From an uncultured Gammaproteobacteria bacterium (GTDB taxonomy: Bacteria; Patescibacteriota; Microgenomatia; Levybacterales; UBA12049): 64,000 nt of DNA. The position numbers and the translations under genes are program-made. The stretch covers positions 423,674-487,673 of the forward strand of contig CAZNAA010000001.1 of the NCBI GenBank assembly GCA_964571255.1, written 5' to 3'. Below, piece by piece: positions 6,737 to 56,119 of this stretch; positions within the stretch are counted from its first letter, which is position 1; each line of letters opens with the position of its first letter. The notes under the pieces are model-generated. The model worked only from the letters and a program-made list of their open reading frames with translations, made no database searches and was not told the origin of the DNA.

Positions 6737-7510
6737 TTATGCAGAAATTCTTCCTTCTTTAACATCTAAGTCTTGAATAAAACGATTTAATTCACTCAAT
6801 TGCCTCTGAATTATTTGACATCTTCCAAAATCAATTATGTTATTCGCCACTGCGTGTGTTAATACTTGATCGGCTGTAACAAGTGAATGAAGCTCAACAC
6901 CTTTTTTCCATAATACTCTTTTCCCGTACCCATTACTTCTATCCAGTGCGACAACTGCGTGTCTTACGGGAAGTTTTCCTACATTTCGTAAAGTATCAAT
7001 TGCTTTCATAAGTGTTTCACCTGTACTCCATACATCTTCAAGAACAGCTGTTTCCTTCCCTTCGTTTTGCGGAAGTAATCCGGCAATTTGTTGTCCTATT
7101 CCTATTGCTTTTGGTTCAAAATTTGGTGTAACAGAAGGTAAACCACCTAATCTTTCCTTAATAGAACCTAAAAGAACACTCATTGCATTTGGAACTCCAG
7201 CAATCATTTCTATCCTTGATCCAGGAGTTCTTCTGATTCTTTCTATTTCTCTCACATACCCTCTTGCTGTAAGCTTATATAACTGGTCACTTCCTTGTAC
7301 ATCACGAATGTTAAAAGATAGTGGAGCAAGAGGAGCTTCAGGATGTTTTCGATGAAGATTTGTCTCAAATCCTCCAAATTGGATAATACCTAAAGAGAAA
7401 CACAACGTGAGGAAAAAATCTTTATCAAAAAATGGCTCCACTCGTGGTGCTGTTTCAATTGCAGACATAGTTTGTTGGAGTATATAAAAATGTAAGAAAA
7501 ATAACAACAA
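6737..7510 (-). CDS. Type I phosphoribosyltransferase (orotate PRTase-like)
   Basis: The PRPP-binding motif VLEDVWSTGETL (acidic residues, then hydrophobic, then TG) is present. The N-terminal QFGGFETNLHRKHP block resembles the PyrE KFGEFTLKSG block. At 257 aa it is longer than typical PyrE. Confidence 0.5.
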   Translation of the reverse strand: MLLFFLHFYILQQTMSAIETAPRVEPFFDKDFFLTLCFSLGIIQFGGFETNLHRKHPEAPLAPLSFNIRDVQGSDQLYKLTARGYVREIERIRRTPGSRIEMIAGVPNAMSVLLGSIKERLGGLPSVTPNFEPKAIGIGQQIAGLLPQNEGKETAVLEDVWSTGETLMKAIDTLRNVGKLPVRHAVVALDRSNGYGKRVLWKKGVELHSLVTADQVLTHAVANNIIDFGRCQIIQRQLSELNRFIQDLDVKEGRISA

Positions 7511-7618
7511 GTTCTCTTTACTTCAATTCACCTTTCTTTTATGAAAAAATGGATCTACTACCTCATTTAAAATGATAGGCTACATTTTCTAACAAATTTT
7601 GTATAATAGGGTAGAATT

Positions 7619-8329
7619 ATGGATAAACAGAAAAAGTGGGGTATTATTACTCCGGTTGCTAACGAAGAAGAAATTATTACCAAGTTTGTAAGAGAATTAA
7701 GTAAGGAAGCGGAGAAAATTCCAGGTAAGGTTTCACTCTTTTTTGTTATAGACAAAGTTTCTACAGACAAAACTCTCTCTCTTCTAAAGAAAGAGAGTCA
7801 AAAGAATAAGTTGGTTCATGTAGTATATGAACCCAAAAACAGAAATTTAGTTGATGCATATGTTCGTGGATACAAAGAAGCATTAAATCAAAAATGTGAT
7901 TTTATTATTGAGATAGATTGTGGATTCTCTCATCAGCCAAAAGAAATTCATAAATTTGTTGAAGGATTACTTGAAGGCTATGATTGTGTTTTTGGAACCC
8001 GTCCTCTCTGGTCACCTTTTTACAAAGCACCCTTTATGCGCCGAATTTATAGCTTAGGAGGAACTGTTTTAGCAAACGTACTTCTTGGAACTCGACTAAA
8101 AGATATGACTTCAGGATTTGAAGCTTTTACTGCAAAAGCACTCAAAAGCATTATAGCTAAGCCTCTTAAATCCACGGGACATTTTTTCCAAACCGAAATT
8201 CGTTTCCGAGCACGTAAGCTGCACTTGAAACAAGTATGGATCAATTATAATTTTACAGGCACCAGCCTTAACAAAAGCAGTCTAGAGAACTCCTTCACTA
8301 CTCTCTTTTCTCTCATGAAAGAGCGATAA
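7619..8329 (+). CDS. GT2-family glycosyltransferase (DPM1-like, soluble)
   Basis: N-terminal GT-A signature (ITPVANEEE...VIDKVSTD) and a DxD-like EIDCGFSH region. At 236 aa it has no TM segments. Confidence 0.6.
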   Translation: MDKQKKWGIITPVANEEEIITKFVRELSKEAEKIPGKVSLFFVIDKVSTDKTLSLLKKESQKNKLVHVVYEPKNRNLVDAYVRGYKEALNQKCDFIIEIDCGFSHQPKEIHKFVEGLLEGYDCVFGTRPLWSPFYKAPFMRRIYSLGGTVLANVLLGTRLKDMTSGFEAFTAKALKSIIAKPLKSTGHFFQTEIRFRARKLHLKQVWINYNFTGTSLNKSSLENSFTTLFSLMKER

Positions 8330-8416
8330 ATCAACCCTTTTACTATCTTCCAAAGCTAGGTTAATTTTGTTAGTATCGTATGGTATTGTGTAAAGGAACG
8401 CTTATCTAATGAGATT

Positions 8417-9958
8417 ATGAATAATACCATTAAGCATATTATTATCCAGGCTGGAGGAAGAGGATCACGTCTTGAAAGTCTCACGGATAATAAGCCTAAA
8501 GCACTCGTCTCTGTGAATGGTGAAGCGCTGATTGTTAACCAAATGAAGCTATTCCCTGATGCACAGTATTATGTGATCGCTGATTATAAACACGATATTC
8601 TAGAAAAATATCTCAAGCTGTACGCTCCAGCCTCATATGAAATTATTACTGCACAAGGGAAACATAATTGTTCAGGAATACGTGAGTGCCTTACTCGTAT
8701 CCCTCCCAAAACCCCCTTCGTTCTTATGTGGTCTGATTTATTTTTTACTAAACAACTCTATCCTAAACACATTGAGCCAGATAAGAATAATTACATAGGT
8801 CTTTCTACTACCTTTACTTGTAGGTGGATGTTTGAAAAAGGGAAATTAAGAGAAGAACGAAGTTCAGAGCGAGGTATTGCAGGAGTTTTTATCTTTAAAA
8901 ATAAAGAGGAAATCGAAGATGTACCAGACAATGGAGAGCTTTGCGAGTACCTCGCTGAGAAAAATAACCAGTTCTCCTCCTTTTTCCTCAAAGGAGTCCA
9001 CGAAGTAGGAACTATTGAGGCATACGAGACTGTAACACGGCAATTTCCCCATACCAGACCATTTAACAAACTCCATCTTAAAGACACCGTTGTGATTAAA
9101 CGGGCAAAAGATGCTTTTGGAAAGCCACTAGCTAAATTAGAAGCGAATTGGTATAAACATCATAAAGATCATCTCCACGATTTCCTTCCCAAAGTGTATA
9201 AGCACTATCCTTTAACTCTTCAAAGAATTACAGGAAACCCACTGCATCGTACAAGCTTATCTATCTCAGAAAAAAAGAAATTGCTTAAAAGAATTGTTAC
9301 TAACTTACAAACCATTCATTCAGAAGCTACTCCTAAAAAAAGTTCTTTTGAGAATGATTATCAGGCCATACTAGGAAAAACCAAAGACAGACTCAATTCA
9401 ATAGCTACTCTTATTCCTTTTGTTAATTCAGATACCTTTGTCATTAACGGGAAAACGTGTATTAACTTTTATAAAGAATGGGATATCGTTGAGAACCTCC
9501 TGAAACATACCTTCCCACAAAAGTATGTTCCTATTCATGGCGATGCCACTTTTTCAAATATGCTCTATGAAGAAGCAGGACGGAAAATCTATCTTATCGA
9601 TCCAAGAGGATACTATGGTAAATCTAAATTGTATGGAGATGAAGACTATGATTGGGCAAAACTCTATTATTCTATTAAGGGGAACTATGATCAGTTTAAC
9701 GAAAAGAAATTTCGTTTAGGTGTTGAGGAGAATAATATTTCTCTTTCCATTGGCTCTAATGGATGGGAGCCTTTAGAAGAAAATTTTCTCAGTCTCATTA
9801 AGCGAGATATTACTAAGATCAAAGCCTACCATGCAATTATTTGGCTTTCACTCACTTCCTATGCATGGGATAACTATGATTCAATTTGCGGTGCATTTTA
9901 CAATGGTATATATTTAATGCAAGATAGCTATGAAAACTCACTTCCGAAAACAGATTGA
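8417..9958 (+). CDS. Fusion protein: N-terminal sugar-1-phosphate nucleotidyltransferase plus C-terminal APH/choline-kinase-like sugar kinase
   Basis: The N-terminus carries the NTP-transferase G-loop IIQAGGRGSRL...KPKALV. The C-terminal ~300 aa has the Brenner motif HGDATFSNML and the IDPRGYYG catalytic/Mg loop of the APH/ChoK/AmgK/NahK fold. Confidence 0.6.
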   Translation: MNNTIKHIIIQAGGRGSRLESLTDNKPKALVSVNGEALIVNQMKLFPDAQYYVIADYKHDILEKYLKLYAPASYEIITAQGKHNCSGIRECLTRIPPKTPFVLMWSDLFFTKQLYPKHIEPDKNNYIGLSTTFTCRWMFEKGKLREERSSERGIAGVFIFKNKEEIEDVPDNGELCEYLAEKNNQFSSFFLKGVHEVGTIEAYETVTRQFPHTRPFNKLHLKDTVVIKRAKDAFGKPLAKLEANWYKHHKDHLHDFLPKVYKHYPLTLQRITGNPLHRTSLSISEKKKLLKRIVTNLQTIHSEATPKKSSFENDYQAILGKTKDRLNSIATLIPFVNSDTFVINGKTCINFYKEWDIVENLLKHTFPQKYVPIHGDATFSNMLYEEAGRKIYLIDPRGYYGKSKLYGDEDYDWAKLYYSIKGNYDQFNEKKFRLGVEENNISLSIGSNGWEPLEENFLSLIKRDITKIKAYHAIIWLSLTSYAWDNYDSICGAFYNGIYLMQDSYENSLPKTD

Positions 9959-10541
9959 CGCATTAGAACATGTCTATAATTTGCTCGATGAAAAGACGTC
10001 TGAAAAGTTAATAAAACAATGTCGAACTGCTATAAAAAATGGCAATGCGATTATTGCTAGTGGACTGGGGAAAAATGTACCGATTTGTGAAAAATTTGTT
10101 GGAACTCTTAATTCTCTAGGCATACGTGGCCATTTTCTTCATATTAACTCCGCAATTCATGGTGACTTAGGAATGATTCAACCTGGTGATATTGTTATCT
10201 TATTATCAAAAAGTGGAGAGACACAAGAAGCCTTGTACTTAAATCAATTTTTAGAGAAAAGAACAAAACATATCTGGTTATTGACCTGTTCGAAAGACTC
10301 CACTCATGCCAAGATAACTCCAAATGTTGTTGTCTTACCTATCCCTCACGAAGGTGATGTATGGGATTTGGTACCAAACAACTCAAGCATTACATTCTTA
10401 GTATATCTCCAGGCTCTTTGCATGGAACTTCTTGAAACCTTACCTGTAAAACTTGGAACTTTTAAGAAAAATCATCCAGGAGGACGAATTGGAGAAATTC
10501 TTTCAGAAAAAGAAGAAACTATTACGTCTCTTCACAAATAG
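9930..10541 (+). CDS. SIS-domain sugar-phosphate isomerase (KpsF/GutQ-like, lacking CBS domains)
   Basis: It shows the motifs GLGKN, HGDLGMI, SKSGET and FKKNHPGG (HPGG), matching the SIS domain of arabinose-5-phosphate isomerases. At only 203 aa it has no CBS pair. It overlaps the upstream kinase gene by 29 nt. Confidence 0.65.
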   Translation: MKTHFRKQIDALEHVYNLLDEKTSEKLIKQCRTAIKNGNAIIASGLGKNVPICEKFVGTLNSLGIRGHFLHINSAIHGDLGMIQPGDIVILLSKSGETQEALYLNQFLEKRTKHIWLLTCSKDSTHAKITPNVVVLPIPHEGDVWDLVPNNSSITFLVYLQALCMELLETLPVKLGTFKKNHPGGRIGEILSEKEETITSLHK

Positions 10542-10608
10542 AAGAGTAGATATGATAAGATTATTTTTGATGCTCCTAATGGAGAGAGAAAGATAAGTAA
10601 TTAAGGAT

Positions 10609-11181
10609 ATGACAGCAGACCATACGTGTAACTATTGCCACCAACCTCTTGATCCAAATCAAGAAACCTGTTGCCGCGAACAGGCAGAAAAACAACTTCT
10701 GGATATTCTTCAAGTAACCCTTAAAAAGCCAACAGAGGAATTTTTACAACGACTTAAAACAATTTTTTCCACCAAATCAGAACAAGTACTCCAAGAGCAT
10801 CAACCTGAAGCATTCTCTCTTTCAGAAATAATTGATAAATTCCTCATCATTGCCTTAAAAAATCAGTATCTCGATGGTGATAGACTTGTTCAGAATAAAA
10901 ATGACTATCAAAACGTTGAAGATGTCATTAGAAATAAGTTTACTTCCTATGAAATTAATGATCTCCCCTTATTCCTATCACTGTGTAGTGACTTATGGGT
11001 AGTAAACGCTGAGATTTTTTGTATTAATGATATTTGTACAAGTAATCAGGATGATAAAATTGTAGCTGCTGCCGCACGAAGAATGTTTGATATGATTAAA
11101 GAAAGAAATCGAATCAAACATGCAATTGCTAAAGAATTAAAAGAAATGATGTTTGAGACAAAACAGTTCCAGAAAGCCTAG
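10609..11181 (+). CDS. Hypothetical protein with an N-terminal Cys cluster (CNYCHQ...ETCC)
   Basis: 190-aa ORF with no recognisable family. It is convergent with copZ. Confidence 0.3.
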   Translation: MTADHTCNYCHQPLDPNQETCCREQAEKQLLDILQVTLKKPTEEFLQRLKTIFSTKSEQVLQEHQPEAFSLSEIIDKFLIIALKNQYLDGDRLVQNKNDYQNVEDVIRNKFTSYEINDLPLFLSLCSDLWVVNAEIFCINDICTSNQDDKIVAAAARRMFDMIKERNRIKHAIAKELKEMMFETKQFQKA

Positions 11182-11193
11182 TTAACAACTATT

Positions 11194-11409
11194 TTATTGC
11201 TTAATTCTTGCAAGATACCCTGTCTTTTTAATTATTCCAACTATCTGTTCTAAATTAATTTTCTTTTCGTCAAATTCAACATCTGTCTCTTGTTTGGCAT
11301 AATTAGTATTTGATTCGATAACCCCCTCTGTATCTTCAAGTTCGCCATCAATATTCATGGCACAATTTGTGCAGTGCATTCCCTCAATTTTCAACGTTAC
11401 TTTCTTCAT
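11194..11409 (-). CDS. copZ: Copper chaperone CopZ (HMA domain)
   Basis: The 71-aa product carries the GMHCTNCA (M-x-C-x-x-C) motif in a ferredoxin-like HMA fold. Confidence 0.8.
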   Translation of the reverse strand: MKKVTLKIEGMHCTNCAMNIDGELEDTEGVIESNTNYAKQETDVEFDEKKINLEQIVGIIKKTGYLARIKQ

Positions 11410-12545
11410 ATTACATTTATCATCCCTCGATACATTCCCATGCTACACATAAAGGGGATTTGTGTTGGTTTATCAGGCATCTTGAGTGTAACGGTTTCTG
11501 TCTCTCCTTCTTGAACAACTTTTTGATAATTAAAAGCTGGAATAGTAAATGCGGAGGCACACGTGTACACCCCATCATTTCTTATCTCAAATGATACATT
11601 TGTTCCAACTTTTACGGTCACTATGTTTGGACTGTAACCACCTTCTAGTATATTAATCACAACATTCTCTTGAGGGGCACTATTTTTAGATTTGTTTTCT
11701 AAATTAGAATTTTGGCCAGATAGAGTATCAATTGTCCATAAACTTCCACTCAATGCAAGTACGTTGTTTAAATTAAATACGGCAAGAATAATAATGGCAA
11801 ATGCTGCTACCTTCATAAATTTTTGACGCAACGATTCACCCAATCTACTTGTAAAGTATCCAAGAATAAAAAACAATGGAGAAGTTCCAAGCACAAAAGC
11901 AAATAAGATTGCAGATCCCAAAAATGGATTTGCTGAACCTATGGCAAGAGCCATCATTGCCTGGGTAACACCACATGGAATAAACACCGTGAATGCACCA
12001 AGTAATGCTGGTGCGAATAAACTTTTACTTTTTGATTGATTTCTCACAATACGTGTTAGTGATTTTGGTGGTTGAATGATAAAGTATCTAAAAATTGGGT
12101 GAATATTAAGAATACTCAATGCTGTCCCTACCATAAAGATAACTACGACTAATTGCATCACAATTTGTGTGCGTAGTGATAATTGAAAAAGGGAGCCAAA
12201 AAAACCAAGAAGAAAACCAAGAATAGTATAGGCAATTAGTTTTGAAATAAGAAACGATAAAATTGGAAGCACATTGCCAGATTGGTTTGTTTTCTCCTTT
12301 AATGTATCTTCTTGTCGTTGGGCTAAAGTTGCGGCAAGTAATCCTCCTTGGATTGCTAAACAACTTAAGCCCCCAGTCAAAAGACCAGTTATAAAAACCG
12401 CCCACAAGTTAATATGTTGATCTGTAACACTTGAAACATTTGGATTCTCGAGTGAGTAAATTTTTAGCAAAAGAAAACCAATAAGAATAATAGCACCAAG
12501 ACACGCAGAAATCAATAATGTTTGTTTTTTAATCCTAATCTCCAT
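11406..12545 (-). CDS. Polytopic permease (DsbD_2/CcdA-like topology) fused to a C-terminal cupredoxin-like metal-binding domain
   Basis: The ~280-aa N-terminus has 7-8 TM segments with Cys-containing TMs (GGLSCLAIQGG and FIPCGVTQA). The C-terminal ~100 aa (EGGYSPNIVTVKVGTNVSFEIRNDG...CASAF...FMCSMGMYRGMINV) is paralogous to ORF 14822-15187. It overlaps copZ by 4 nt. Confidence 0.5.
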   Translation of the reverse strand: MEIRIKKQTLLISACLGAIILIGFLLLKIYSLENPNVSSVTDQHINLWAVFITGLLTGGLSCLAIQGGLLAATLAQRQEDTLKEKTNQSGNVLPILSFLISKLIAYTILGFLLGFFGSLFQLSLRTQIVMQLVVVIFMVGTALSILNIHPIFRYFIIQPPKSLTRIVRNQSKSKSLFAPALLGAFTVFIPCGVTQAMMALAIGSANPFLGSAILFAFVLGTSPLFFILGYFTSRLGESLRQKFMKVAAFAIIILAVFNLNNVLALSGSLWTIDTLSGQNSNLENKSKNSAPQENVVINILEGGYSPNIVTVKVGTNVSFEIRNDGVYTCASAFTIPAFNYQKVVQEGETETVTLKMPDKPTQIPFMCSMGMYRGMINVI

Positions 12546-43053: not shown

Positions 43054-44232
43054 TTATTTTATAGCACTAACATACACAGATTCTAACTTTTTCACAATAC
43101 TTTTCCAATCATACGTATCTTCAATAAGTTTTCGAGCCTTTTTTTGTATCTTTGTATATAAAGCTCTATCTCCTGTTATTTCTTGAACTAATCTCGCAAG
43201 TTCTTTTGATGTATCTCCAATAAGTACTTCTTCCTTGTGATGAGCATCAATTCCTTCAATCCCAAGTGCAGTCGTTACTACGGGTAGACCACTTGCCATA
43301 GCTTCAAGTACTTTAAATTTAGTTCCCCCTCCAACACGGATTGGAGCAAGAAGAACATGTGCTTCTTGAAATGCTTTGGCTGCATCTTCAACGTGTTCAT
43401 CAAAAATAATTGACGTGTCTTTACTTAAATTCTTAATTTGTTGAGGAATTTCTTTTCCTACTATCCAAAGCGTAAGTGAATCTCCCTCTTTTCCTTCTTT
43501 TATCTTTGGCCAGATCTGAGTAATGATTTGATTTACTGCATCTTGGTTGGCAATCCATTTGAAACTACCAATAAACAGTACCTTTTTGGATCTTTTCTTT
43601 TCAGAAAAAGCAAAATTAGTAATATCAACGCCATTAGGAACTAGTGCTACATCGTTTCGTTTCATCTTTTTTTGCTCAATCCCTGATACTGCAACCAACT
43701 TAGTAGCTTTCTTCCAGAATTTTTCCTCCCAATATTTTATTTTCGCAATATCAAAATAAAGAAGAGGAAGTAATCCTACTAAGATACGAGGAAGTGTCTG
43801 GATGTACCGCTGGTATACCAGGTACTCAATATTATGTTCAACTAGAACTGTCGGAAGGAGAGTATTGGGTAAATTATGCATAATATAAAATGTTTCTACA
43901 TGAATAAGATCATATGTCTCTTTACTCAAAAGCTCTGAAATTTTCCTTTTCATTTCAGGATGAAAATGTCCAGTAAGTAAAAATGGATACCAAGTAAAAG
44001 CAGTTTTGAAAATATTAGCAGATGACCACTGTTTTTTTCTATCCACTGTATAGACTTCGTTACAAATCTTTTTCAGCTCAGCAATATCTTTCTCTGATTG
44101 ATGATGACGCCTCTCACAAACAAGAGTAACAGTATGAGTACGACTCAACTCTTTAATGATGTTATACAAGCGTACATCTCCTCCTGAGTACAAAGGAAAA
44201 GGGAGAAAAGATGATACAAGTAGGATGTTCAT
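43054..44232 (-). CDS. GT4-family glycosyltransferase
   Basis: C-terminal GGGTKFKVLEAMASGLPVVTT; 392 aa. Confidence 0.7.
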   Translation of the reverse strand: MNILLVSSFLPFPLYSGGDVRLYNIIKELSRTHTVTLVCERRHHQSEKDIAELKKICNEVYTVDRKKQWSSANIFKTAFTWYPFLLTGHFHPEMKRKISELLSKETYDLIHVETFYIMHNLPNTLLPTVLVEHNIEYLVYQRYIQTLPRILVGLLPLLYFDIAKIKYWEEKFWKKATKLVAVSGIEQKKMKRNDVALVPNGVDITNFAFSEKKRSKKVLFIGSFKWIANQDAVNQIITQIWPKIKEGKEGDSLTLWIVGKEIPQQIKNLSKDTSIIFDEHVEDAAKAFQEAHVLLAPIRVGGGTKFKVLEAMASGLPVVTTALGIEGIDAHHKEEVLIGDTSKELARLVQEITGDRALYTKIQKKARKLIEDTYDWKSIVKKLESVYVSAIK

Positions 44233-45743
44233 TTTTTAAGAGAAAAAAGAAGATATGCAGGTGATTCACTAATTAAAGGATATTCACTACTTATCCCTTT
44301 ATCTTCTGGCTTCGGATAGAGAATAACAAAATAATCTGCACCCATCAAGGCAAGTTCAGGAAGGCTTTTGGACATACTTGCCCACCCTTTCCTATTCATA
44401 GCATAAAGAAAGGTTGTATCTCCATCTCTGTTAGTAACAACTGTTGCATCTTTAGGAAGGGTTTTATCAAGTTCTTTTCCAACTGCCACAAGTGTTGGAT
44501 CATATTTATAAAACTCTCGCACTTGATACCAGGTAAATGCTAACATGAGAAGCATAATAAGGCCTAACACTCCCCGGGAAACCCACGGATGAAAAAGTCC
44601 TTTGACAGGCATAAAGAGAAGTCTTGCTCCTAACCCTGTAAAAATTGCAAGGGATGGAATAATAGGGATTTGATAATAATCATGTTGAACATTTCCCCGA
44701 GCCACTACAACTAGATAAATAAGAGTAGATGCCAAAAAGGAATAAAAAAGTCCCCGATGAGTTGGTCCTTTTTTCTCTCCAAATTGCACGAGACTGTTAT
44801 AAAGAATACCAAGTATTAATAGTGCCACTCCATAATAGCCAAGAATTAACTTTCCAATTCTTTCAGCAAAAATCCAGTGAAAATATGCTCCTGTGAAACG
44901 AATATTGCCTCCGTTAAATAACCAATTACTCACAGGAATTCCTTCTGGAAATTGGGTAATCCATATTCTCCAAAGAAGCAAAGGCAGGACTGCCAATACA
45001 GCATAGAGATATAACTCCCATCGTTTAAATACTTTCACTCCATATGTACTAAATGATAGATAAACAATTGGGAGATAGAAAAAAAGAGCAAAGGGTTTAA
45101 AGAGTAAACTCTCTATCGCAAAAACAAGAGAGCAAAGAAAAAAAAGAACTTTCTTTTTTCCACTCGCTGAAAGATATCCATCAAAAAAGTATATTGCCAT
45201 AATAACAGCAGCTATCATATGAGGATCAGGAAGGACTACTCTACCGTAATACACAGCAAATGGTAAAACTGCGTAGACTCCAGCAACCATGAGCCCTGTC
45301 AAATCATCAGTATATTTTCTTACCAGAAGAAAAAGAAAGGTAACTGTTAATAAACTCGCTCCTACTGCCCACAATCTTCCCCACATCTCAAGTGTAATAA
45401 ATGGGAAAATAATAAATGCTAAGGCATGAGGAAGATTAAAAAGTGGAAATTCAACAAATCTATTTCCTTCAGGATTATCTAGTCCTGCTGGAACATTTGA
45501 TAAGTCATCAAATTTTGGATGAAGAAGATCAAACTCTCCTTGAACTAAATTTCGAGAAACTGCTGAGGTATCTACTTGACGCCAACTATGCCAATCAGCA
45601 AGAGGAGATTGAATGTGGTAAAGACGTAATAGCCCAGTGAGGATAAAAGCACCGATAAAAAATATCAGAGTAGTTTTCTTCATATTAATTTCTTTCTGCT
45701 TCGTAAAGAGAGTAAGACTCATCAAAAAGAAGAATACGGGCAT
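44229..45743 (-). CDS. GT-C superfamily polytopic glycosyltransferase (ArnT/PMT-like)
   Basis: 504 aa with >=10 TM segments, and a first extracytoplasmic loop WHSWRQVDTSAVSRN that resembles the acidic loop of GT39/GT83 enzymes. Confidence 0.5.
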   Translation of the reverse strand: MPVFFFLMSLTLFTKQKEINMKKTTLIFFIGAFILTGLLRLYHIQSPLADWHSWRQVDTSAVSRNLVQGEFDLLHPKFDDLSNVPAGLDNPEGNRFVEFPLFNLPHALAFIIFPFITLEMWGRLWAVGASLLTVTFLFLLVRKYTDDLTGLMVAGVYAVLPFAVYYGRVVLPDPHMIAAVIMAIYFFDGYLSASGKKKVLFFLCSLVFAIESLLFKPFALFFYLPIVYLSFSTYGVKVFKRWELYLYAVLAVLPLLLWRIWITQFPEGIPVSNWLFNGGNIRFTGAYFHWIFAERIGKLILGYYGVALLILGILYNSLVQFGEKKGPTHRGLFYSFLASTLIYLVVVARGNVQHDYYQIPIIPSLAIFTGLGARLLFMPVKGLFHPWVSRGVLGLIMLLMLAFTWYQVREFYKYDPTLVAVGKELDKTLPKDATVVTNRDGDTTFLYAMNRKGWASMSKSLPELALMGADYFVILYPKPEDKGISSEYPLISESPAYLLFSLKK

Positions 45744-49553: not shown

Positions 49554-50158
49554 CGTGCTCTTCCTAGAATGTAATGAAGATTTGAGGTATCTCTGGTTCC
49601 AATTACTTTGGCAGGAATTCCTCCAACAACTTCTCCTTCTCCTACGTCTTTAGTCACTACTGCACCTGCTCCGATAACTGCACCTTTCCCAATAGTTATT
49701 CCTGGAAGAATGATAGCTCGAGGACCAATAAATACATAATCATGAATTGTCACTGCCTCTTCTTGTACTCCCTCATTTGATGCAAAATGTTCAGCATGAA
49801 TATTATGTTGAGAGTTATAAATCATCACTTCACTTGCTATATCAACATGATCTCCAATAACAAGTTTTGCCCGTCCATCAAGAACTACTCCCTCGCCAAT
49901 AATACTATCTTTTCCAATTGAGATATTATGAGGATTATAAAACCTAGCATGCATGTGAATAGTTGATCCTTTGCCAATCTGAATCCCCCCCATTCTATAA
50001 AAAAGTCTTCTTACTAAATGTGAGGGAGCACATCCCACCATATGAAGCAAGTACACTTCAAGTTCCAGTAAAATATTTTCGACTCTATTAAATCCTTTTT
50101 TCATAACCTCAGTACTTGATAATGACTTTCCTGTTTTATCTTTAAGCATTTTTTCCAA
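49541..50158 (-). CDS. Hexapeptide-repeat (LbH) sugar O-acetyltransferase
   Basis: Repeated [LIV]GxxxxIxxx hexads, e.g. IGKGSTIHMHARF, IGKDSIIGEGVVL and IGKGAVIGAGAVV (WcaF/maltose-acetyltransferase-like). Confidence 0.75.
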   Translation of the reverse strand: MEKMLKDKTGKSLSSTEVMKKGFNRVENILLELEVYLLHMVGCAPSHLVRRLFYRMGGIQIGKGSTIHMHARFYNPHNISIGKDSIIGEGVVLDGRAKLVIGDHVDIASEVMIYNSQHNIHAEHFASNEGVQEEAVTIHDYVFIGPRAIILPGITIGKGAVIGAGAVVTKDVGEGEVVGGIPAKVIGTRDTSNLHYILGRARWFR

Positions 50159-51260
50159 CCTCCAGTAAAACTTCTAGGGTTTGTTTTGCTGTTTTTTCCC
50201 AACTAAACTTTTTAACTTGTTCCCTTCCTTTTTTAATTAACTCTTCACGTACTTTTTTATCTGTATACATCTCTTCCATCTTCTCAGCAATATCTTGAGA
50301 GTTCAATGGATCAACATAGAGTACTGCATCTCCTCCAGCTTCAGGGAGACTACTAATATTACTGGTAATAACAGGACAATCAAACTTCATGGCTTCAAGA
50401 ACAGGGAGTCCAAATCCTTCGTAGAGACTGGGGAGAACATAGGCAACAGCATTACTATAAAGTCCGGGAAGATCTTCATTTGGAACAAAATCAAGAAACT
50501 TTACTTGGTCTTCAACTCCATACGTTTTAGGAGAAGCTAAAATTTCTTCATACATCCATCCCTTTTTGCCTACAATAATAAGTTGCACTTCGGGATGTTT
50601 TTTTTGAAGGTAGGAAAAGGCTTGGACAAGCCTGGTTACATTTTTTCTCGGTTGGAGTGTACTGACAAACAAAAAGTAAGGCATTGAGAAAGAGTATTTC
50701 TTTTGTAATTCAGCTATGGTTATTTGATTTTTCATATCACCCGTTGGCTTAATTCCTAAGTAGGTTACTGTAATATCTTCCTCTTTTACCTTGTAGAACT
50801 TAATTATATCACGTTTACTTGCCTCACTAATGGTAAAAACTTTAGTTGCATTTTTCACTGAATACCCTGTCCACTCTTTCAATTGGTATAAATCTGATTG
50901 GTTAAATAGTGCTGGAAAATGGAGGTATGCTAAATCCATAATCGAAATAACTGTTGGAACTGGAGAGAAACGAGGAGCATAGTGAGAAGGGGTAAAAAAG
51001 AGTGTGGGACGAGGAAAGTGGGTAAAAAGATAGAGAGGAAGACCCACCTGAGTCCAGAGTCTTTTGGGTTTTACAAGTACGTATTTCCAGTACTCATTTT
51101 CCTTTGGCATATCACCAAGTGGAGGCTGTTTAAGATACACAGTAAACTGAAGGGTTGATGAAGCATTCGCAGCAAAGTGTTTTAGTACTTCATATGCATA
51201 TACTCCACTTCCCACTCTTCTCTCTTCATTAGCTTCATTTCCATCAATTCCAATTATCAT
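50142..51260 (-). CDS. GT4-family glycosyltransferase
   Basis: C-terminal YEGFGLPVLEAMKFDCPVITS; 372 aa. Confidence 0.7.
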   Translation of the reverse strand: MIIGIDGNEANEERRVGSGVYAYEVLKHFAANASSTLQFTVYLKQPPLGDMPKENEYWKYVLVKPKRLWTQVGLPLYLFTHFPRPTLFFTPSHYAPRFSPVPTVISIMDLAYLHFPALFNQSDLYQLKEWTGYSVKNATKVFTISEASKRDIIKFYKVKEEDITVTYLGIKPTGDMKNQITIAELQKKYSFSMPYFLFVSTLQPRKNVTRLVQAFSYLQKKHPEVQLIIVGKKGWMYEEILASPKTYGVEDQVKFLDFVPNEDLPGLYSNAVAYVLPSLYEGFGLPVLEAMKFDCPVITSNISSLPEAGGDAVLYVDPLNSQDIAEKMEEMYTDKKVREELIKKGREQVKKFSWEKTAKQTLEVLLEVGKNA

Positions 51261-51835
51261 ACATTTACTCCTGCTAAAATAACTTTTAATTTATTTTCTG
51301 GAATTCCCAGTATATCCACTGCATCCTTTTTCGTTGCTTCTGAGATGCAAAGGATTTTATCTACTTCTTTTTTTACCCAGTATAGTTTTTTCTTTTGAGT
51401 AGTAACAATATTAGGAGTGAGTAACATTTTTTTAAGAGAGAAACTCGTATTATTATTTGCTTCTTCTGGGTATTTATAGACAACCAAATCATAGAGAATA
51501 GTTACTTTTTTTGCTTTTTGTACGGGCGGCTCAACCCAATCTGATGAAAGAAAAACATCAACTTTTCCAATAAGTCGCTCAATGGGAAGAATGTGTAAGA
51601 CATTCCATAACAGATGTAAAACTGTAGGAGGTAATTTGAACTGTTTTATAGCCACATTTGAATGTTTCGTTGTAAGATCCTGGACTCTCTGAGGAAGAGT
51701 CCCACGTAAAGAGGAGAAAAACAGAATATACTCATTCTCCAAATCTTGTTTCAAAAGAGTGGAAACAAGTGAATAAAGATAATTAGGTACTCCCCCAGAA
51801 TAAGCAAGTTGCGAAATATCAATTCCTATTTTCAT
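51257..51835 (-). CDS. Stand-alone GT4 N-terminal-domain protein (possible split or truncated GT)
   Basis: MKIGIDISQLAYSGGVPNY matches the Glyco_trans_4 N-domain start. At only 192 aa it has no C-terminal sugar-donor domain. The downstream gene is a complete GT4 with its own N-domain. Confidence 0.4.
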   Translation of the reverse strand: MKIGIDISQLAYSGGVPNYLYSLVSTLLKQDLENEYILFFSSLRGTLPQRVQDLTTKHSNVAIKQFKLPPTVLHLLWNVLHILPIERLIGKVDVFLSSDWVEPPVQKAKKVTILYDLVVYKYPEEANNNTSFSLKKMLLTPNIVTTQKKKLYWVKKEVDKILCISEATKKDAVDILGIPENKLKVILAGVNV

Positions 51836-52058: not shown

Positions 52059-53017
52059 TTAGCCTCTGAAGAATATTTTAGAGGAAATATGATAGGTTTG
52101 TCATCTTCCATTGGTTGAGAATATGACATATGAAGCAAAAGATCAGCAATAAAGCCTGTTGAAAAGATTTGTAATCCTCCAACAATAAGGAGTACTGCAT
52201 ACGTTAAGAGAGGTCTTGTACCAATTGATTGTCCACTCAAACGGAGAAGTGTGAGATAGACAAGGAGAGCTCCTCCAATAATGGTACATATTCCACCAAT
52301 TATTCCAAAAAAGTGCATAGGTCTTTTACTGTACTTGAAAATAAAGATTACGGTAAACATATCTGGAAGCTCCTTCCAGAGTTTAGAAAAACCATATTTA
52401 GAAGTACCTTGCATTCGTGGAGCATGTTCAACTACTACTTCATCAACTGAAAATCCGTTATTTTGTGAGATAAGAGGAATAAAACGATGGAGCCCTCCAT
52501 AGAGTCTAAGAGATTTAGCAGCATCTTTTTTATACATCTTAAGTCCACAGTTATAATCATGAAGGCTTAATCCAAATAGATAATTCATGATTTTATTGAA
52601 AATTCGAGAGATAGCAACCATTTTGGACTTATCTTTTCTATCTCTTCTCCATCCAGAAACAACATCTGTTCCTGATTGACATTTTTTAAGTAATTTATGG
52701 ATTTCAGTTGGCTTATCTTGTAAATCTGCATCCAATGTAACAATATAATCTCCGTCTGATTTTTGGAAACCTAAGGTAAGGGCCTCAGCCTTACCCATAT
52801 TTTTTCTAAAAGAAAATGCTTTTACTCTCTTATCCTTTTTAACTAAATCTTGAAGCATAGAGAGACTTTTATCTGTAGAACCATCATCGACAAACACTAT
52901 CTCATAGCGAGAAGATAAAGAAGGCATAACACGAGTTGCTTCAGCATAGAAAGCATCAAGACTTTCTTCCTCGTTGTAGACTGGAACTACCACTGAAATC
53001 AACGGATTTTTTTCCAT
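52055..53017 (-). CDS. Polyprenyl-phosphate glycosyltransferase (GT2; DPM1/GtrB/ArnC-like with a C-terminal 2-TM anchor)
   Basis: ISVVVPVYNEEESL...VFVDDGSTDKS...DADLQD, plus two C-terminal TM segments. Confidence 0.75.
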   Translation of the reverse strand: MEKNPLISVVVPVYNEEESLDAFYAEATRVMPSLSSRYEIVFVDDGSTDKSLSMLQDLVKKDKRVKAFSFRKNMGKAEALTLGFQKSDGDYIVTLDADLQDKPTEIHKLLKKCQSGTDVVSGWRRDRKDKSKMVAISRIFNKIMNYLFGLSLHDYNCGLKMYKKDAAKSLRLYGGLHRFIPLISQNNGFSVDEVVVEHAPRMQGTSKYGFSKLWKELPDMFTVIFIFKYSKRPMHFFGIIGGICTIIGGALLVYLTLLRLSGQSIGTRPLLTYAVLLIVGGLQIFSTGFIADLLLHMSYSQPMEDDKPIIFPLKYSSEAK

Positions 53018-55045: not shown

Positions 55046-56119
55046 CTAACGGACAAGCTTTTTTTCATCTCGTAGTTCTATCCACGCATGTAATAGACCG
55101 ATAAGAAGAAGTAAAAACACCCATATACTGGATTCATCAGCAAGTAGGGGTTTATTTATTGTTAAAAGAATGATAGTCAAACCTAGCATAAAAATAGAAG
55201 AGAAAAAAGAGATAACACTTGGAAGTTTATAAAACCATACTCCAAGTACCCACAAAAACATTGTATGGCTTAATAAGTATCCGTTCACTCCAGTGAAAAG
55301 AAATATTGGTATAAGAATAATTATGTGTAAAAGAAATATTACACTAAAGGTATTAAGAGTAATGATATGAGTAGCCAAAAGCTTATGTCCTTTTTTCACT
55401 CGTTCGTTTCCTTTAAGCTGTTTTATTATTCTTTTTGCACCTGATTCAATAACATTTTTAAAAAGAAGATATGTCAAAAATGGACTAAATGAGAATGCAA
55501 TAATAAGAATGCTTATAGGATTTGATAATGAGAAAGTTATCTTTTGTGCAATGAAATGAAGAGACACAGTTTTGTCTGAGACTAGAACAGCTTTAGAGAA
55601 TTGATAACTTCCAACAATAGCAGGATAATTTGGATTAAAGGTCAACGAATTATCCTCTGTTCCCCTTTGAGAAATAACTTCAACAATATATTTTTTATTT
55701 TTAGATGAGGCTATTGTTGGAAAACCAAATGGGTAAAGAGTAAGCGTTCGGAAATTTCCTCCCCCGTATGCCCGTTCGTAATACCATTTTGCATCACCCT
55801 CCTCTTTTATTCGAAATACTATTTCATCCTCATCAATATTCCACTTGTTATAATTTTTTAGACGGAGTGAAATAATTCCGAGATTATCTTCTGAAGCTAT
55901 AAAAACAGCTCTAACCTTTTCTCCTTTTAGAATTCTTCCTGTTTTACTTTTACTATCAAGACCTGAAGTATGATCAACAGGCAAGGTAGATAAACTAGCA
56001 CTATTATTAAAAAGAACCATTGCAGCGACAAACAAGCCAAAGAAGAAGAACATGTAGAGAGTAATCCAGTGTCTGATATGTATACCTATGAGGTTTATTA
56101 CGGAATAAATAAATTTCAT
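55046..56119 (-). CDS. Hypothetical membrane protein (N-terminal TM, beta-rich ectodomain, C-terminal 4-5 TM)
   Basis: 357 aa with no recognised motifs. Confidence 0.3.
   Translation of the reverse strand: MKFIYSVINLIGIHIRHWITLYMFFFFGLFVAAMVLFNNSASLSTLPVDHTSGLDSKSKTGRILKGEKVRAVFIASEDNLGIISLRLKNYNKWNIDEDEIVFRIKEEGDAKWYYERAYGGGNFRTLTLYPFGFPTIASSKNKKYIVEVISQRGTEDNSLTFNPNYPAIVGSYQFSKAVLVSDKTVSLHFIAQKITFSLSNPISILIIAFSFSPFLTYLLFKNVIESGAKRIIKQLKGNERVKKGHKLLATHIITLNTFSVIFLLHIIILIPIFLFTGVNGYLLSHTMFLWVLGVWFYKLPSVISFFSSIFMLGLTIILLTINKPLLADESSIWVFLLLLIGLLHAWIELRDEKKLVR

What the first reader, a model, noticed from the sequence alone, without database searches (positions are those of the whole stretch)
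7619..10541. Unusual nucleotide-sugar activation module: fused nucleotidyltransferase::APH-like anomeric kinase overlapping a CBS-less KpsF-like isomerase
A single 513-aa ORF joins an N-terminal sugar-1-P nucleotidyltransferase (GGRGSRL G-loop) to a C-terminal APH/choline-kinase-fold kinase (HGD...IDPRG). Known analogues of this two-step kinase-then-NT logic are separate proteins (AmgK+MurU for MurNAc recycling; NahK-type GlcNAc/GalNAc 1-kinases; LicA+LicC for choline). Here they are fused in NT-then-kinase order. The next gene, overlapping by 29 nt, is a 203-aa SIS isomerase whose motifs (HGDLGMI, SGET, HPGG) match arabinose-5-phosphate isomerases but which lacks the CBS pair. A soluble GT2 lies just upstream. 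This points to a salvage-type route to an unusual NDP-sugar, or to phosphocholine decoration, feeding the large glycan cluster in this window.
Basis: partly seen in the sequence, partly recalled or inferred. Interest (0 to 1): 0.6.

Follow-up and report, generated by a model that had tools for sequence, protein, structure and literature searches.

The report
Bacterial arabinose-activation module missing its phosphatase
The fused enzyme and its neighbouring isomerase are real and are the bacterial counterpart of a three-enzyme pathway, recently found in phages, that turns ribulose-5-phosphate into nucleotide-activated D-arabinose; in this genome the third enzyme, a small phosphatase, has been almost completely deleted.

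Summary
GT2 (7619-8329), a 513-aa nucleotidyltransferase::kinase fusion (8417-9958) and a CBS-less KpsF-type SIS isomerase (9930-10541, 29-nt overlap) are all there, with their catalytic motifs intact.

The fusion is not an artefact and not rare. An independent assembly is identical, and relatives occur in at least 542 species genomes.

The fusion is homologous over its full length to the T-even phage proteins RB69 gp52:53 and Bp7 gp091 (26-28% identity). It also matches Synechococcus phage S-SRM01 (33%, 9e-88). A 2026 paper equates the phage proteins with AfhE, a bifunctional D-arabinose-5-phosphate 1-kinase / UDP-D-arabinose pyrophosphorylase. AfhE works with an arabinose-5-phosphate isomerase and a HAD phosphatase (AfhF).

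Of 71 informative bacterial loci, 61 carry a HAD phosphatase next to the fusion. Monoderm and CPR lineages add the SIS isomerase; diderm lineages mostly do not.

In this window only about 80 nt of the phosphatase gene remain (10511-10604). A roughly 90%-identical relative keeps it intact.

Best reading: a de novo route from Ru5P to NDP-D-arabinofuranose in a CPR bacterium, probably feeding the adjacent DPM1/ArnC-like GT2, with its phosphatase step recently lost. It is not salvage and not phosphocholine. It is a new (cellular) member of a known kind.

The parts
7619..8329 (+). GT2 glycosyltransferase, 236 aa. It has the catalytic domain of the polyprenyl-phosphate sugar synthases (DPM1/ArnC/GtrB type) and no transmembrane segment. 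It is the probable consumer of the NDP-sugar.
   Evidence: Pfam Glycos_transf_2 1.3e-14. The NCBIfam best hits are PgfS, AglJ, ArnC and dolichyl-P hexose transferase, all far below cut-off. The only PDB sequence relatives are P. furiosus DPM synthase 5mlz (8e-12), ArnC and GtrB sll0501. No hydrophobic segment. It is syntenic with the module in L008, L010, L014 and L015, and a homologue sits next to the module in a Myxococcota bin, L055 (HMM 1e-45). dN/dS against L014 is 0.049.
8417..9040 (+). N-terminal sugar-1-phosphate nucleotidyltransferase domain of the fusion (residues 1 to about 208). The G-loop GGRGSRL is at 8453-8473.
   Evidence: Pfam NTP_transf_3 and NTP_transferase. Foldseek of the full model matches MurU, LicC and HddC (E 1e-9 to 1e-10, TM on target 0.70-0.75). 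The profile of A1 against PDB gives HddC at 4e-11. G13, G14, G16, R18, K26, P27, K28 and D107 are conserved in 35 homologues.
9065..9958 (+). C-terminal APH/choline-kinase-fold kinase domain of the fusion (residues about 217-513). The catalytic H374-G-D376...N381 lies at 9536-9559 and the Mg-binding D395-P-R-G at 9599-9610.
   Evidence: The domain model has pLDDT 94.4. Foldseek matches 3dxq, APH(2'')-IVa, LicA and NahK at probability 1.00. The catalytic residues are invariant. A signature is shared with the phage proteins: IHGDxxFSN, IDPRGYFG, YDxAKLYYS, G(N)YDxFN. dN/dS of the whole fusion against L014 is 0.108.
9930..10505 (+). Single-domain (CBS-less) KpsF/KdsD-type SIS sugar-phosphate isomerase, a predicted D-arabinose-5-phosphate isomerase. 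It overlaps the fusion gene by 29 nt.
   Evidence: Pfam SIS 3.7e-12 and NCBIfam kpsF 8.3e-28, KdsD 6.8e-25, GutQ 2.9e-24. PDB: 5uqi 4.9e-20, 3etn, 3fxa, KdsD 2xhz. An ungapped alignment to KdsD places K48, H77, E100, E141 and H182 at KdsD positions 59, 88, 111, 152 and 193. 30% identical to RB69 gp55 (6e-17) and to the S-SRM01 SIS (9e-26). dN/dS is 0.068.
10511..10604 (+). Relic of the small HAD phosphatase gene (the AfhF-equivalent step). Two deletions of about 194 nt and about 97 nt, plus an in-frame TAG at 10539-10541, leave only ETITSLHK*KSRYDKIIFDAPNGER. The DxD nucleophile motif and the C-terminus are gone.
   Evidence: tblastn with the Oscillospiraceae, Sutterella and S-SRM01 phosphatases hits 10548-10622 (E 0.002-0.04 in the 64-kb window). 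The alignment to L010 is. blastn to L014 and L015, which are about 90% identical in nt and carry an intact 122-aa gene, is. The identical sequence occurs in the independent assembly L013.
10609..11181 (+). Conserved 190-aa partner of unknown function. It has a Cys-rich N-terminus and gives a weak DUF6165-like hit.
   Evidence: It is syntenic directly after the phosphatase in L008, L010, L014 and L015. Pfam DUF6165 at 0.0024, below cut-off. No PDB relative. dN/dS is 0.103.

Best explanation
The module is the cellular counterpart of the phage pathway that makes nucleotide-activated D-arabinofuranose. It sits in a Patescibacteria (CPR) genome.

Proposed steps:
1. The SIS protein isomerises D-ribulose-5-phosphate to D-arabinose-5-phosphate.
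2. The C-terminal APH-fold domain of the fusion phosphorylates C1, giving arabinose-1,5-bisphosphate.
3. A small HAD phosphatase removes the 5-phosphate.
4. The N-terminal domain of the fusion couples arabinose-1-phosphate to an NTP. The phage product is UDP-sugar; the nucleotide here is unknown.
5. The adjacent GT2, which has no membrane anchor and resembles DPM1/ArnC, most likely uses the product, perhaps to charge a polyprenyl phosphate.

What is shown: domain identities, intact catalytic residues, full-length homology to the phage enzymes, and conserved gene association across phyla.

What is inferred: the substrate (arabinose), the nucleotide, and the role of the GT2.

In this genome the gene for step 3 has been destroyed by two deletions and a stop codon. 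The other four genes are intact and have evolved under purifying selection. So the pathway either uses another phosphatase encoded elsewhere or has recently become non-functional.
For: 1. Architecture and catalytic competence.

2. Homology to the phage enzymes. tblastn finds 361 phage records, 186 of them full length, mostly T-even-like. blastp gives Bp7 gp091 26.7% over 525 aa (3.6e-36), RB69 gp52 28% over 311 aa (1.7e-20) and S-SRM01 33.5% over 511 aa (8.8e-88), with shared kinase signature motifs.

3. Published function. PMC13326640 reports that HY126 AfhE is a dual D-arabinose-5-P kinase / UDP-D-arabinose pyrophosphorylase and that AfhF is a Mg-dependent phosphatase. It treats RB69 gp55, gp52:53 and gp51 as their counterparts, and shows that UDP-Araf is the donor used by the DLP3 transferases.

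4. The same gene trio occurs elsewhere:
- RB69: API, split fusion, small HAD.
- S-SRM01: SIS, fusion, 113-aa phosphatase.
- Sutterella: SIS+CBS, fusion, 124-aa HAD.
- CPR relatives.
- Triple NT-kinase-SIS fusions.

5. Survey of 71 informative loci:
- 30 have SIS plus HAD.
- 30 have HAD only. All of these are diderm lineages, which (from established knowledge) already make arabinose-5-P through KdsD for Kdo.
- 11 have SIS only. In one of these, the Woesebacteria locus, the SIS is fused to a Cof-type HAD.
- Where diderm loci do carry a SIS, it is the full KpsF type with CBS.

6. The SIS has the KdsD catalytic residues.

7. The GT2 relatives of known structure are only polyprenyl-phosphate glycosyltransferases.

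8. dN/dS is 0.05-0.11 for the four intact genes.

9. The host is CPR. FtsZ is about 75% identical to Levybacteria and Patescibacteria FtsZ.
Against: - Identity to the T-even phage proteins is only 26-28%, and 17% in the NT domain against RB69 gp53. Substrate specificity can drift at that distance.
- The biochemically characterised protein (HY126 AfhE) could not be compared directly.
- The small HAD of the bacterial type is not detectably similar to RB69 gp51 or Bp7 gp092 by HMM.
- No arabinose-containing glycan is known from CPR bacteria.
- The phosphatase is missing here, so the full pathway may not run in this organism.
- The NT domain's closest structural relatives use three different nucleotides: UDP (MurU), CDP (LicC) and GDP (HddC).
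- The GT2 acceptor is a guess.
Confidence: 0.6

Rival explanations
1. Same enzyme logic, different sugar. The isomerase, 1-kinase, phosphatase and nucleotidyltransferase act on another ketose phosphate, for example sedoheptulose-7-P (by analogy with GmhA/HddA/GmhB/HddC) or a hexulose phosphate. The product would then be an NDP-heptose or NDP-hexose rather than NDP-arabinose.
For: The four-step logic is identical to the GDP-heptose pathway (established knowledge). The best profile-to-PDB hit of the NT domain is HddC at 4e-11. One CBS-less SIS relative in the PDB (3fxa) is annotated only as 'SIS domain protein'. Identity to the phage enzymes is low. Diderms also possess GmhA, so 'no SIS in diderm loci' does not by itself discriminate between the two sugars.
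Against: The SIS matches the KpsF/KdsD/GutQ models (1e-24 to 1e-28) and gives no GmhA hit. The HddC model scores 17 against a cut-off of 300. The KdsD catalytic residues are all present. When diderm loci carry a SIS it is the KpsF type with CBS. The only characterised homologues make arabinose (PMC13326640).
Confidence: 0.17
2. The module is a decaying remnant in this genome. With the phosphatase gone, no NDP-sugar is made, and the remaining genes are on their way to loss.
For: About 290 of the 369 nt of the phosphatase gene are deleted and a stop codon has been introduced. A relative with about 90% nt identity and 99% identical FtsZ keeps the gene intact. 61 of 71 loci elsewhere keep a HAD next to the fusion. 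No DxD-type HAD motif occurs in any ORF of the 64-kb window. CPR genomes are prone to gene loss (established knowledge).
Against: The GT2, fusion, SIS and 190-aa genes are full length, have intact catalytic residues, and show dN/dS of 0.05-0.11. Note that this ratio averages over the whole divergence and cannot detect a very recent relaxation. Ten loci from other organisms (eight Bacillota, two unclassified) have no HAD within 6 kb of the fusion, and a Woesebacteria genome uses a different HAD type, so the step can be supplied by other enzymes. Only 64 kb of a contig of at least 773 kb could be inspected.
Confidence: 0.3
3. A LicC/LicA-like CDP-choline (phosphocholine decoration) enzyme, or an AmgK/MurU-like MurNAc salvage enzyme.
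For: The best phmmer PDB hit for the G-loop region is LicC (1jyk, 0.0013). Pfam Choline_kinase hits at 0.0042. Foldseek top hits are MurU for the NT domain and LicA among the top hits for the kinase domain. A LicCA fusion exists in Treponema.
Against: All these scores are far below family cut-offs: Choline_kinase 16.9 against 29, and MurU 26 against 250. Neither pathway needs a sugar-phosphate isomerase or a phosphatase, yet one or both are adjacent to, or fused with, the fusion in all 71 loci. No LicB/LicD-like or MurNAc-related gene was seen among the window genes scanned. The family-specific kinase motifs match the phage AfhE-like proteins.
Confidence: 0.04

Closest known systems
Phage UDP-D-arabinofuranose pathway. 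Members: HY126 AfhE (bifunctional kinase/pyrophosphorylase), AfhF (HAD phosphatase) and an arabinose-5-phosphate isomerase; RB69 gp55, gp52:53 and gp51; DLP3 gp83, gp82 and gp81. Sources: PMC13326640, PMC6024577; He et al. 2026 Nat Chem Biol was cited there but could not be read.
   Same: - The domain order is the same, NT then APH-fold kinase, in one polypeptide.
- Homology is full length, with shared kinase signature motifs.
- The partner isomerase is the same CBS-less KpsF type (30% identity to RB69 gp55).
- Relatives have the same small HAD of about 120 aa as third gene.
- Gene order matches RB69 and S-SRM01.
   Different: - The setting is cellular (a CPR bacterium), not viral.
- There is no 5-hydroxycytosine synthase or DNA glycosyltransferase nearby, so the product must go to a glycan or lipid rather than to DNA.
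- The neighbouring transferase is a GT2 of the polyprenyl-phosphate type, not the GT-B DNA arabinosyltransferases.
- Identity is only 26-33%.
- The bacterial-type small HAD is not recognisably the same subfamily as RB69 gp51.
- The phosphatase is deleted in this genome.
GDP- and ADP-heptose pathways (GmhA, HddA or HldE, GmhB, HddC)
   Same: The chemical logic is identical: SIS isomerase, anomeric kinase acting on a sugar phosphate, HAD phosphatase removing the distal phosphate, then nucleotidyltransferase. HldE is likewise a kinase/nucleotidyltransferase fusion (established knowledge). The NT domain resembles HddC.
   Different: The SIS belongs to a different subfamily (KpsF rather than GmhA). 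The kinase has a different fold (APH/ChoK rather than GHMP or ribokinase). The HddC model score is far below cut-off.
Single-domain arabinose-5-phosphate isomerases (PDB 5uqi, a 198-aa phosphosugar isomerase; B. fragilis 3etn) and E. coli KdsD/GutQ
   Same: The SIS fold, the motifs GxGK, HGDLG, SGE and HPGG, and the five KdsD catalytic positions are conserved. CBS-less forms are already solved structures, so the lack of CBS is not unusual.
   Different: In a CPR bacterium, which has no LPS by established knowledge, the arabinose-5-P cannot be destined for Kdo. Here it is coupled to a kinase/NT fusion by a 29-nt gene overlap. The Ser/Thr-rich loop reads VPNNSS instead of APTSST.
LicC/LicA including the Treponema LicCA fusion, and AmgK/MurU
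   Same: A two-step kinase plus nucleotidyltransferase activation, carried out by an APH/ChoK-fold kinase and a small MurU/LicC-like NT. LicCA shows the same fusion order.
   Different: The substrates are free choline or MurNAc (salvage). No isomerase or phosphatase partner is involved. Sequence scores are far below family thresholds.
Polyprenyl-phosphate glycosyltransferases (DPM1/DPMS, ArnC, GtrB), compared with the GT2
   Same: The GT-A catalytic domain. These are the only PDB sequence relatives of the GT2.
   Different: The GT2 lacks the C-terminal membrane helices of ArnC, GtrB and archaeal DPMS. Its donor and acceptor are unknown.

Membership tests
AfhE-type bifunctional arabinose-5-P 1-kinase / NDP-arabinose pyrophosphorylase | One polypeptide with an N-terminal sugar-1-P nucleotidyltransferase domain and a C-terminal APH/ChoK-fold kinase domain | tested here: met
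   Pfam. The AF2 model has pLDDT 94. Foldseek matches the NT domain to MurU, LicC and HddC and the kinase domain to ChoK, APH, LicA and NahK.
AfhE-type bifunctional arabinose-5-P 1-kinase / NDP-arabinose pyrophosphorylase | Sequence homology over both domains to the phage members | tested here: met
   Bp7 gp091 26.7% over 525 aa, 3.6e-36. RB69 gp52 1.7e-20 and gp53 7e-4. S-SRM01 8.8e-88. 186 phage records are covered at 80% or more. HY126 AfhE itself was not available for comparison.
AfhE-type bifunctional arabinose-5-P 1-kinase / NDP-arabinose pyrophosphorylase | Catalytic residues of both domains present | tested here: met
   H374, D376, N381, D395, K228, the G-loop, K26/K28 and D107 are invariant or nearly invariant in 35 homologues.
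AfhE-type bifunctional arabinose-5-P 1-kinase / NDP-arabinose pyrophosphorylase | Encoded next to a KpsF-type arabinose-5-P isomerase | tested here: met
   29-nt overlap in the window. The same pairing occurs in RB69, S-SRM01, Sutterella and CPR relatives, and as a fusion in Clostridia.
AfhE-type bifunctional arabinose-5-P 1-kinase / NDP-arabinose pyrophosphorylase | Encoded with a HAD phosphatase (AfhF step) | tested here: not met
   Only an 80-nt relic remains at 10511-10604. The gene is intact in the closest relatives L010, L014 and L015, and a HAD is present in 61 of 71 surveyed loci.
AfhE-type bifunctional arabinose-5-P 1-kinase / NDP-arabinose pyrophosphorylase | Phosphorylates D-arabinose-5-P at C1 and forms UDP-D-arabinose | not testable with these tools
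   This needs enzyme assays. For the phage enzyme, the activity is taken from PMC13326640, which cites He et al. 2026.
KpsF/KdsD/GutQ arabinose-5-phosphate isomerase | SIS domain with the KdsD catalytic positions K59, H88, E111, E152 and H193 | tested here: met
   An ungapped alignment to 2xhz gives K48, H77, E100 and E141. H182 lies in HPGG at the same offset of 11. The roles of these residues are taken from memory of the KdsD literature.
KpsF/KdsD/GutQ arabinose-5-phosphate isomerase | C-terminal CBS pair and the curated NCBIfam score | tested here: not met
   No CBS hit. The kpsF model scores 97.7 against a cut-off of 203.7. CBS-less relatives of 198-220 aa exist as solved structures (5uqi, 3etn), so this excludes only the two-domain subfamily.
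LicC/LicA (CDP-choline) | Choline kinase family membership | tested here: not met
   Choline_kinase scores 16.9 bits against a cut-off of 29. No NCBIfam LicA or LicC hit. No LicB/LicD-like gene among the window genes scanned.
AmgK/MurU (MurNAc recycling) | MurU equivalog score | tested here: not met
   NF045761 scores 26.2 against a cut-off of 250, and the match covers only residues 8-46.
GmhA/HddA/GmhB/HddC (GDP-heptose) | GmhA-type SIS and HddC equivalog | tested here: not met
   The SIS protein gives no GmhA model hit. HddC NF049965 scores 17.2 against a cut-off of 300.
Polyprenyl-phosphate glycosyltransferase (DPM1/ArnC/GtrB), tested on the GT2 | GT2 catalytic domain related to DPMS/ArnC/GtrB | tested here: met
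   5mlz 8e-12, ArnC 3e-7, GtrB 2e-4. There are no other PDB families among the hits.
Polyprenyl-phosphate glycosyltransferase (DPM1/ArnC/GtrB), tested on the GT2 | Membrane anchor helices, and transfer to a polyprenyl phosphate | tested here: not met
   No hydrophobic segment in the 236 aa. The transfer activity is not testable here. All NCBIfam equivalog scores are far below cut-off.

The most novel reading that the evidence does not exclude
Many bacteria make a nucleotide-activated D-arabinofuranose from ribulose-5-phosphate. They include CPR lineages, Akkermansia, gut Alphaproteobacteria, Sutterella, Lachnospiraceae, Oscillospiraceae and Treponema. The phage DNA-arabinosylation module would then be a captured copy of this widespread, unstudied cellular pathway. 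In the CPR clade of this window, the adjacent anchor-less DPM1-like GT2 would transfer the sugar to a polyprenyl phosphate. That would give a lipid-linked D-arabinose donor by a route independent of the PRPP/decaprenyl-phosphate-ribose epimerase pathway of mycobacteria.
Probability: 0.2. Interest if true: 0.7.

Novelty: new member of a known kind. Interest (0 to 1): 0.45.

Why it matters
Nucleotide-activated D-arabinofuranose was, in the literature I could search, described only for phage DNA hypermodification (2018-2026). Bacteria known to use D-arabinofuranose, such as mycobacteria, build it on a lipid from PRPP (established knowledge).

This window and its relatives show that the same enzyme set is widespread in cellular genomes, in at least 542 species. 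It sits in glycan-synthesis contexts there, including abundant gut commensals and CPR bacteria whose surface chemistry is essentially unknown. That predicts a class of D-arabinose-containing bacterial glycans or lipids. It also offers a source for the phage module.

The locus also gives a natural contrast. The window genome has the phosphatase deleted, and L014 (about 90% nt identity) has it intact. Comparing the two could show whether the dedicated phosphatase is dispensable.

The finding is not categorically new. The enzyme architecture and the pathway logic are already published.

Tried and rejected
- The primary papers on AfhE/AfhF (He et al. 2026; Mahler et al. 2025) are not held. No preprint version was found. 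The phage biochemistry is therefore taken second-hand from PMC13326640.
- Sequence and profile searches of the PDB found no significant kinase-domain relative. The best was ribulosamine 3-kinase at E 0.03.
- Literature searches for a cellular version of the pathway found only the phage papers.
- tblastn with the 413- and 427-aa Sutterella neighbours, the Oscillospiraceae neighbours, the Bp7 neighbours and the 626-aa membrane protein of L008 found nothing in the window.
- A motif scan for DxD-type HAD phosphatases in all window ORFs of 80 aa or more found none.
- Rfam and tRNA scans of the window found nothing.
- The promoter and terminator scan of 7400-11500 was uninformative. No plus-strand terminator lies inside the module, which is compatible with one operon.
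Taxonomy was inferred from FtsZ relatives.
- An assembly or frameshift artefact was considered and rejected.
- A pseudokinase was considered and rejected.

Full report
**1. The observation**

- GT2: 7619-8329, 236 aa.
- Fusion: 8417-9958, 513 aa.
- SIS: 9930-10541, 203 aa, overlapping the fusion by 29 nt.

A fourth co-oriented ORF follows at 10609-11181 (190 aa).

Pfam finds NTP_transf_3 and NTP_transferase on residues 9-115 of the fusion. It gives only a sub-threshold Choline_kinase match on residues 272-395. It finds SIS in the third protein and Glycos_transf_2 in the first. NCBIfam places the SIS protein closest to KpsF, KdsD and GutQ, at 1e-24 to 1e-28. These scores are below the cut-offs because the CBS half is absent.

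The kinase assignment needed structure.
- The full-length AlphaFold model is confident, with pLDDT 94 and pTM 0.92.
- Its N-terminal half matches MurU, LicC and HddC.
- A separate model of residues 210-513 (pLDDT 94.4) matches choline/ethanolamine kinases, APH(2''), LicA and NahK. Probability is 1.00 and TM-scores are modest, about 0.5-0.58.

In an alignment of 35 homologues the kinase catalytic residues are invariant. These are H374-G-D376, N381 and D395-P-R-G. The nucleotidyltransferase G-loop and lysines are invariant or nearly so. The domain is therefore not a pseudokinase.

**2. The fusion is not an artefact and not rare**

- An independently assembled contig (Logan, SRR8893624) is 100% identical over 7613-10623.
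- The protein database holds 3218 hits. More than 120 of them are full length at 43-75% identity.
- A scan of one genome per species found at least 542 genomes that encode a relative.

The carriers include CPR lineages, Akkermansia, Alphaproteobacteria, Lachnospiraceae, Oscillospiraceae, Treponema, Solirubrobacterales, Gastranaerophilales, Elusimicrobium and Myxococcota. Sutterella wadsworthensis carries it too, in a cluster of 809 sequences.

In Oscillospiraceae and other Clostridia the SIS domain is fused on as a third domain, giving a 711-aa protein. That is strong evidence that isomerase and fusion work together.

**3. What it corresponds to**

A literature search led to PMC13326640 (NAR 2026). 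T-even-like phages that arabinosylate 5-hydroxycytosine encode three sugar-activation proteins:
- an arabinose-5-phosphate isomerase (RB69 gp55, DLP3 gp83);
- a bifunctional protein with an N-terminal nucleotidyltransferase and a C-terminal kinase (RB69 gp52:53, DLP3 gp82);
- a small HAD phosphatase (RB69 gp51, DLP3 gp81).

The paper reports, citing He et al. [quoted passage not shown] It reports that AfhF is the Mg-dependent phosphatase that converts the 1,5-bisphosphate to arabinose-1-phosphate. It also shows that UDP-Araf is the donor for the DLP3 transferases. Thomas et al. 2018 (PMC6024577) had already noted diverged prokaryotic homologues of RB69 ORF53_52c, including Butyrivibrio triple fusions.

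The window protein belongs to this family.
- tblastn against phage genomes gives 361 records, 186 of them full length.
- blastp gives Bp7 gp091 26.7% over 525 aa (3.6e-36), RB69 gp52 28% over 311 aa (1.7e-20), and Synechococcus phage S-SRM01 33.5% over 511 aa (8.8e-88).
- All share motifs beyond the generic kinase signature: IHGDxxFSN, IDPRGYFG, YDxAKLYYS and G(N)YDxFN.

The window SIS is 30% identical to RB69 gp55 and to the S-SRM01 SIS. It aligns without gaps to E. coli KdsD. This places K48, H77, E100, E141 and H182 at KdsD positions 59, 88, 111, 152 and 193. The roles of these residues are from my memory of the KdsD literature. CBS-less relatives are already solved structures (5uqi, 3etn), so the lack of CBS is not unusual.

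**4. The third gene, and its loss here**

In several other loci a protein of about 113-124 aa with a DxDGT motif follows the fusion or the SIS. This holds in S-SRM01, Sutterella, the Oscillospiraceae triple-fusion locus and the CPR relatives. It scores as HAD subfamily IIIB / PNKP-phosphatase-like.

I built HMMs and surveyed the 80 fetched species loci. Of the 71 with enough downstream DNA:
- 30 have SIS plus HAD.
- 30 have HAD only.
- 11 have SIS only.
- None has neither.

The HAD-only loci are all from diderm lineages: Akkermansia, Alphaproteobacteria, Gastranaerophilales, Elusimicrobiota and Desulfuromonadota. By established knowledge these already make arabinose-5-phosphate through KdsD for Kdo. 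The monoderm and CPR lineages carry their own SIS. When a diderm locus does have a SIS, it is the full KpsF type with CBS. This pattern fits arabinose-5-phosphate as the intermediate.

In one Woesebacteria genome the SIS is fused to a different, Cof-type HAD phosphatase. This again shows that a phosphatase step belongs to the pathway.

In the window only a fragment of the phosphatase gene survives. After the SIS core the frame reads ...GEILSEKE ETITSLHK* KSRYDKIIFDAPNGER KISN*. This matches residues of about 63-87 of the relatives' phosphatase...KTINSLHKHGIRYDKIIFNAPKGER....

Contigs L014 and L015 share about 90% nt identity with the window and their FtsZ is 99% identical. Their neighbourhood is largely syntenic with the window's and the 122-aa gene is intact. 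Against them the window has two deletions of about 194 and 97 nt at A/G-rich junctions, plus a stop codon. The nucleophile motif is gone.

The four remaining genes are intact. Against L014 they show dN/dS of 0.05-0.11, like their neighbours. This averages over the whole divergence and would not reveal a very recent relaxation. No DxD-type HAD is encoded elsewhere in the 64-kb window. The rest of the genome could not be inspected.

**5. Context and host**

The module is a small island. On one side lie housekeeping genes: RodA, IleRS, a beta-lactamase-like protein and a phosphoribosyltransferase. On the other side lie copper-homeostasis genes and then the dcw cell-division genes.

The large glycan cluster lies at about 35-64 kb. 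It includes DUF4012, an initiating Bac_transf, a ManC-like NT, several GT4 and GT2, a PMT_2 GT-C, Wzy_C and acyltransferases. It is real but about 25 kb away, so a link to the module is possible and not shown.

The adjacent GT2 is the more likely consumer.
- It is syntenic with the module in the close clade and in a Myxococcota bin.
- Its only relatives of known structure are polyprenyl-phosphate glycosyltransferases: DPM synthase, ArnC and GtrB.
- It lacks their membrane helices.

FtsZ relatives place the genome in the Patescibacteria, near Levybacteria. These organisms lack LPS by established knowledge, so the isomerase is not serving Kdo synthesis.

**6. Mechanism and rivals**

The best-supported model is a de novo route (confidence about 0.6):
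1. Ru5P is isomerised to arabinose-5-P by the SIS.
2. Arabinose-5-P becomes arabinose-1,5-bisphosphate through the kinase domain.
3. The bisphosphate becomes arabinose-1-P through the HAD phosphatase, which is lost here.
4. Arabinose-1-P becomes NDP-D-arabinofuranose through the NT domain.
5. The product is passed to the GT2.

The domain identities, catalytic competence, homology and gene linkage are shown. The sugar, the nucleotide and the acceptor are inferred.

The rivals:
- The same logic with another sugar, such as a heptose (about 0.17). The KpsF-type SIS and the only characterised homologues disfavour it.
- A choline or MurNAc activation enzyme (about 0.04). It is contradicted by the obligatory isomerase and phosphatase partners and by the sub-threshold scores.
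- A separate question is whether the pathway still runs in this genome. I give about 0.3 to the module being non-functional here. Ten loci from other organisms (eight Bacillota, two unclassified) have no HAD within 6 kb of the fusion, and the Woesebacteria locus uses a different HAD type, so substitution by another phosphatase is plausible.

**7. Verdict**

It is wrong on three points.
- The fusion is not unprecedented.
- The route is de novo, not salvage.
- Phosphocholine is not supported.

The module is a new, cellular member of a recently described phage pathway. I found no paper in the searchable library describing the cellular version. The degraded phosphatase is a finding specific to this genome. 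The possible link to a lipid-linked arabinose donor is the most novel reading that remains open.

Noticed in passing
window 10511-10604: Remnant of a small HAD phosphatase gene between SIS and the 190-aa ORF. Two deletions plus a stop codon have destroyed it, and the last 8 codons of the annotated SIS ORF derive from it. The gene is intact in the roughly 90%-identical contigs L014 and L015.
   Followed up: yes
window 10609-11181: A 190-aa protein with a Cys-rich N-terminus (CNYC...CC) and a weak DUF6165-like C-terminal part. It always follows the phosphatase in the close clade (L008, L010, L014, L015). It has no PDB relative and its function is unknown.
   Followed up: partly
L014 2419-3123 (and L015 1085-1789), compared with window 7511-7618: The close relatives carry an extra 234-aa gene with no Pfam match between the phosphoribosyltransferase gene and the GT2. 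The window lacks it. This is a second gene-content difference within the same 10 kb.
   Followed up: partly
L007 (Synechococcus phage S-SRM01, record 191-202 kb): A cyanophage carries the bacterial-type trio (SIS, fusion, 113-aa phosphatase). The trio sits among GDP-fucose synthesis genes, fucosyltransferases and other glycosyltransferases, not next to DNA-modification genes. This suggests a phage-encoded glycan pathway rather than DNA arabinosylation.
   Followed up: no
L019 7512-9134 (Candidatus Woesebacteria): The SIS isomerase is fused to a Cof-type HAD phosphatase (Hydrolase_3) in one 541-aa reading frame. This replaces the usual small HAD.
   Followed up: partly
L008 8441-10321 (minus strand): A 626-aa protein with about 10 hydrophobic segments and no Pfam match sits inside the module of a 59%-identical relative. 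It could be a GT-C-like transferase using a lipid-linked sugar. There is no homologue in the window.
   Followed up: partly
L001 9937-12458 (Sutterella): Two proteins of 413 and 427 aa with no Pfam match follow the SIS+CBS, fusion and HAD genes. They lie downstream of three ABC-exporter genes. They are candidate novel transferases for the product.
   Followed up: no
L066 8071-13115 (Acetatifactor muris): The fusion-SIS pair, without a HAD, is followed by CDP-hexose pathway genes: a glucose-1-P nucleotidyltransferase, a 4,6-dehydratase, a DegT aminotransferase and a TPP enzyme. So the module sits in a complex polysaccharide locus.
   Followed up: partly
window 35367-64000: A large surface-glycan cluster on the minus strand. 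It holds DUF4012, Bac_transf, a ManC-like NT, five GT4, four GT2, a PMT_2 GT-C (44229-45743), a 1005-aa Wzy_C protein, a hexapeptide acetyltransferase and Acyl_transf_3. It also holds three polytopic membrane proteins with no Pfam match (52999-54984, 55046-56119, 58535-60715).
   Followed up: partly
window 51257-51835 and 50142-51260: A 192-aa ORF with only the N-terminal Glyco_transf_4 half is followed by a 372-aa GT4. This may be a split or duplicated glycosyltransferase.
   Followed up: no
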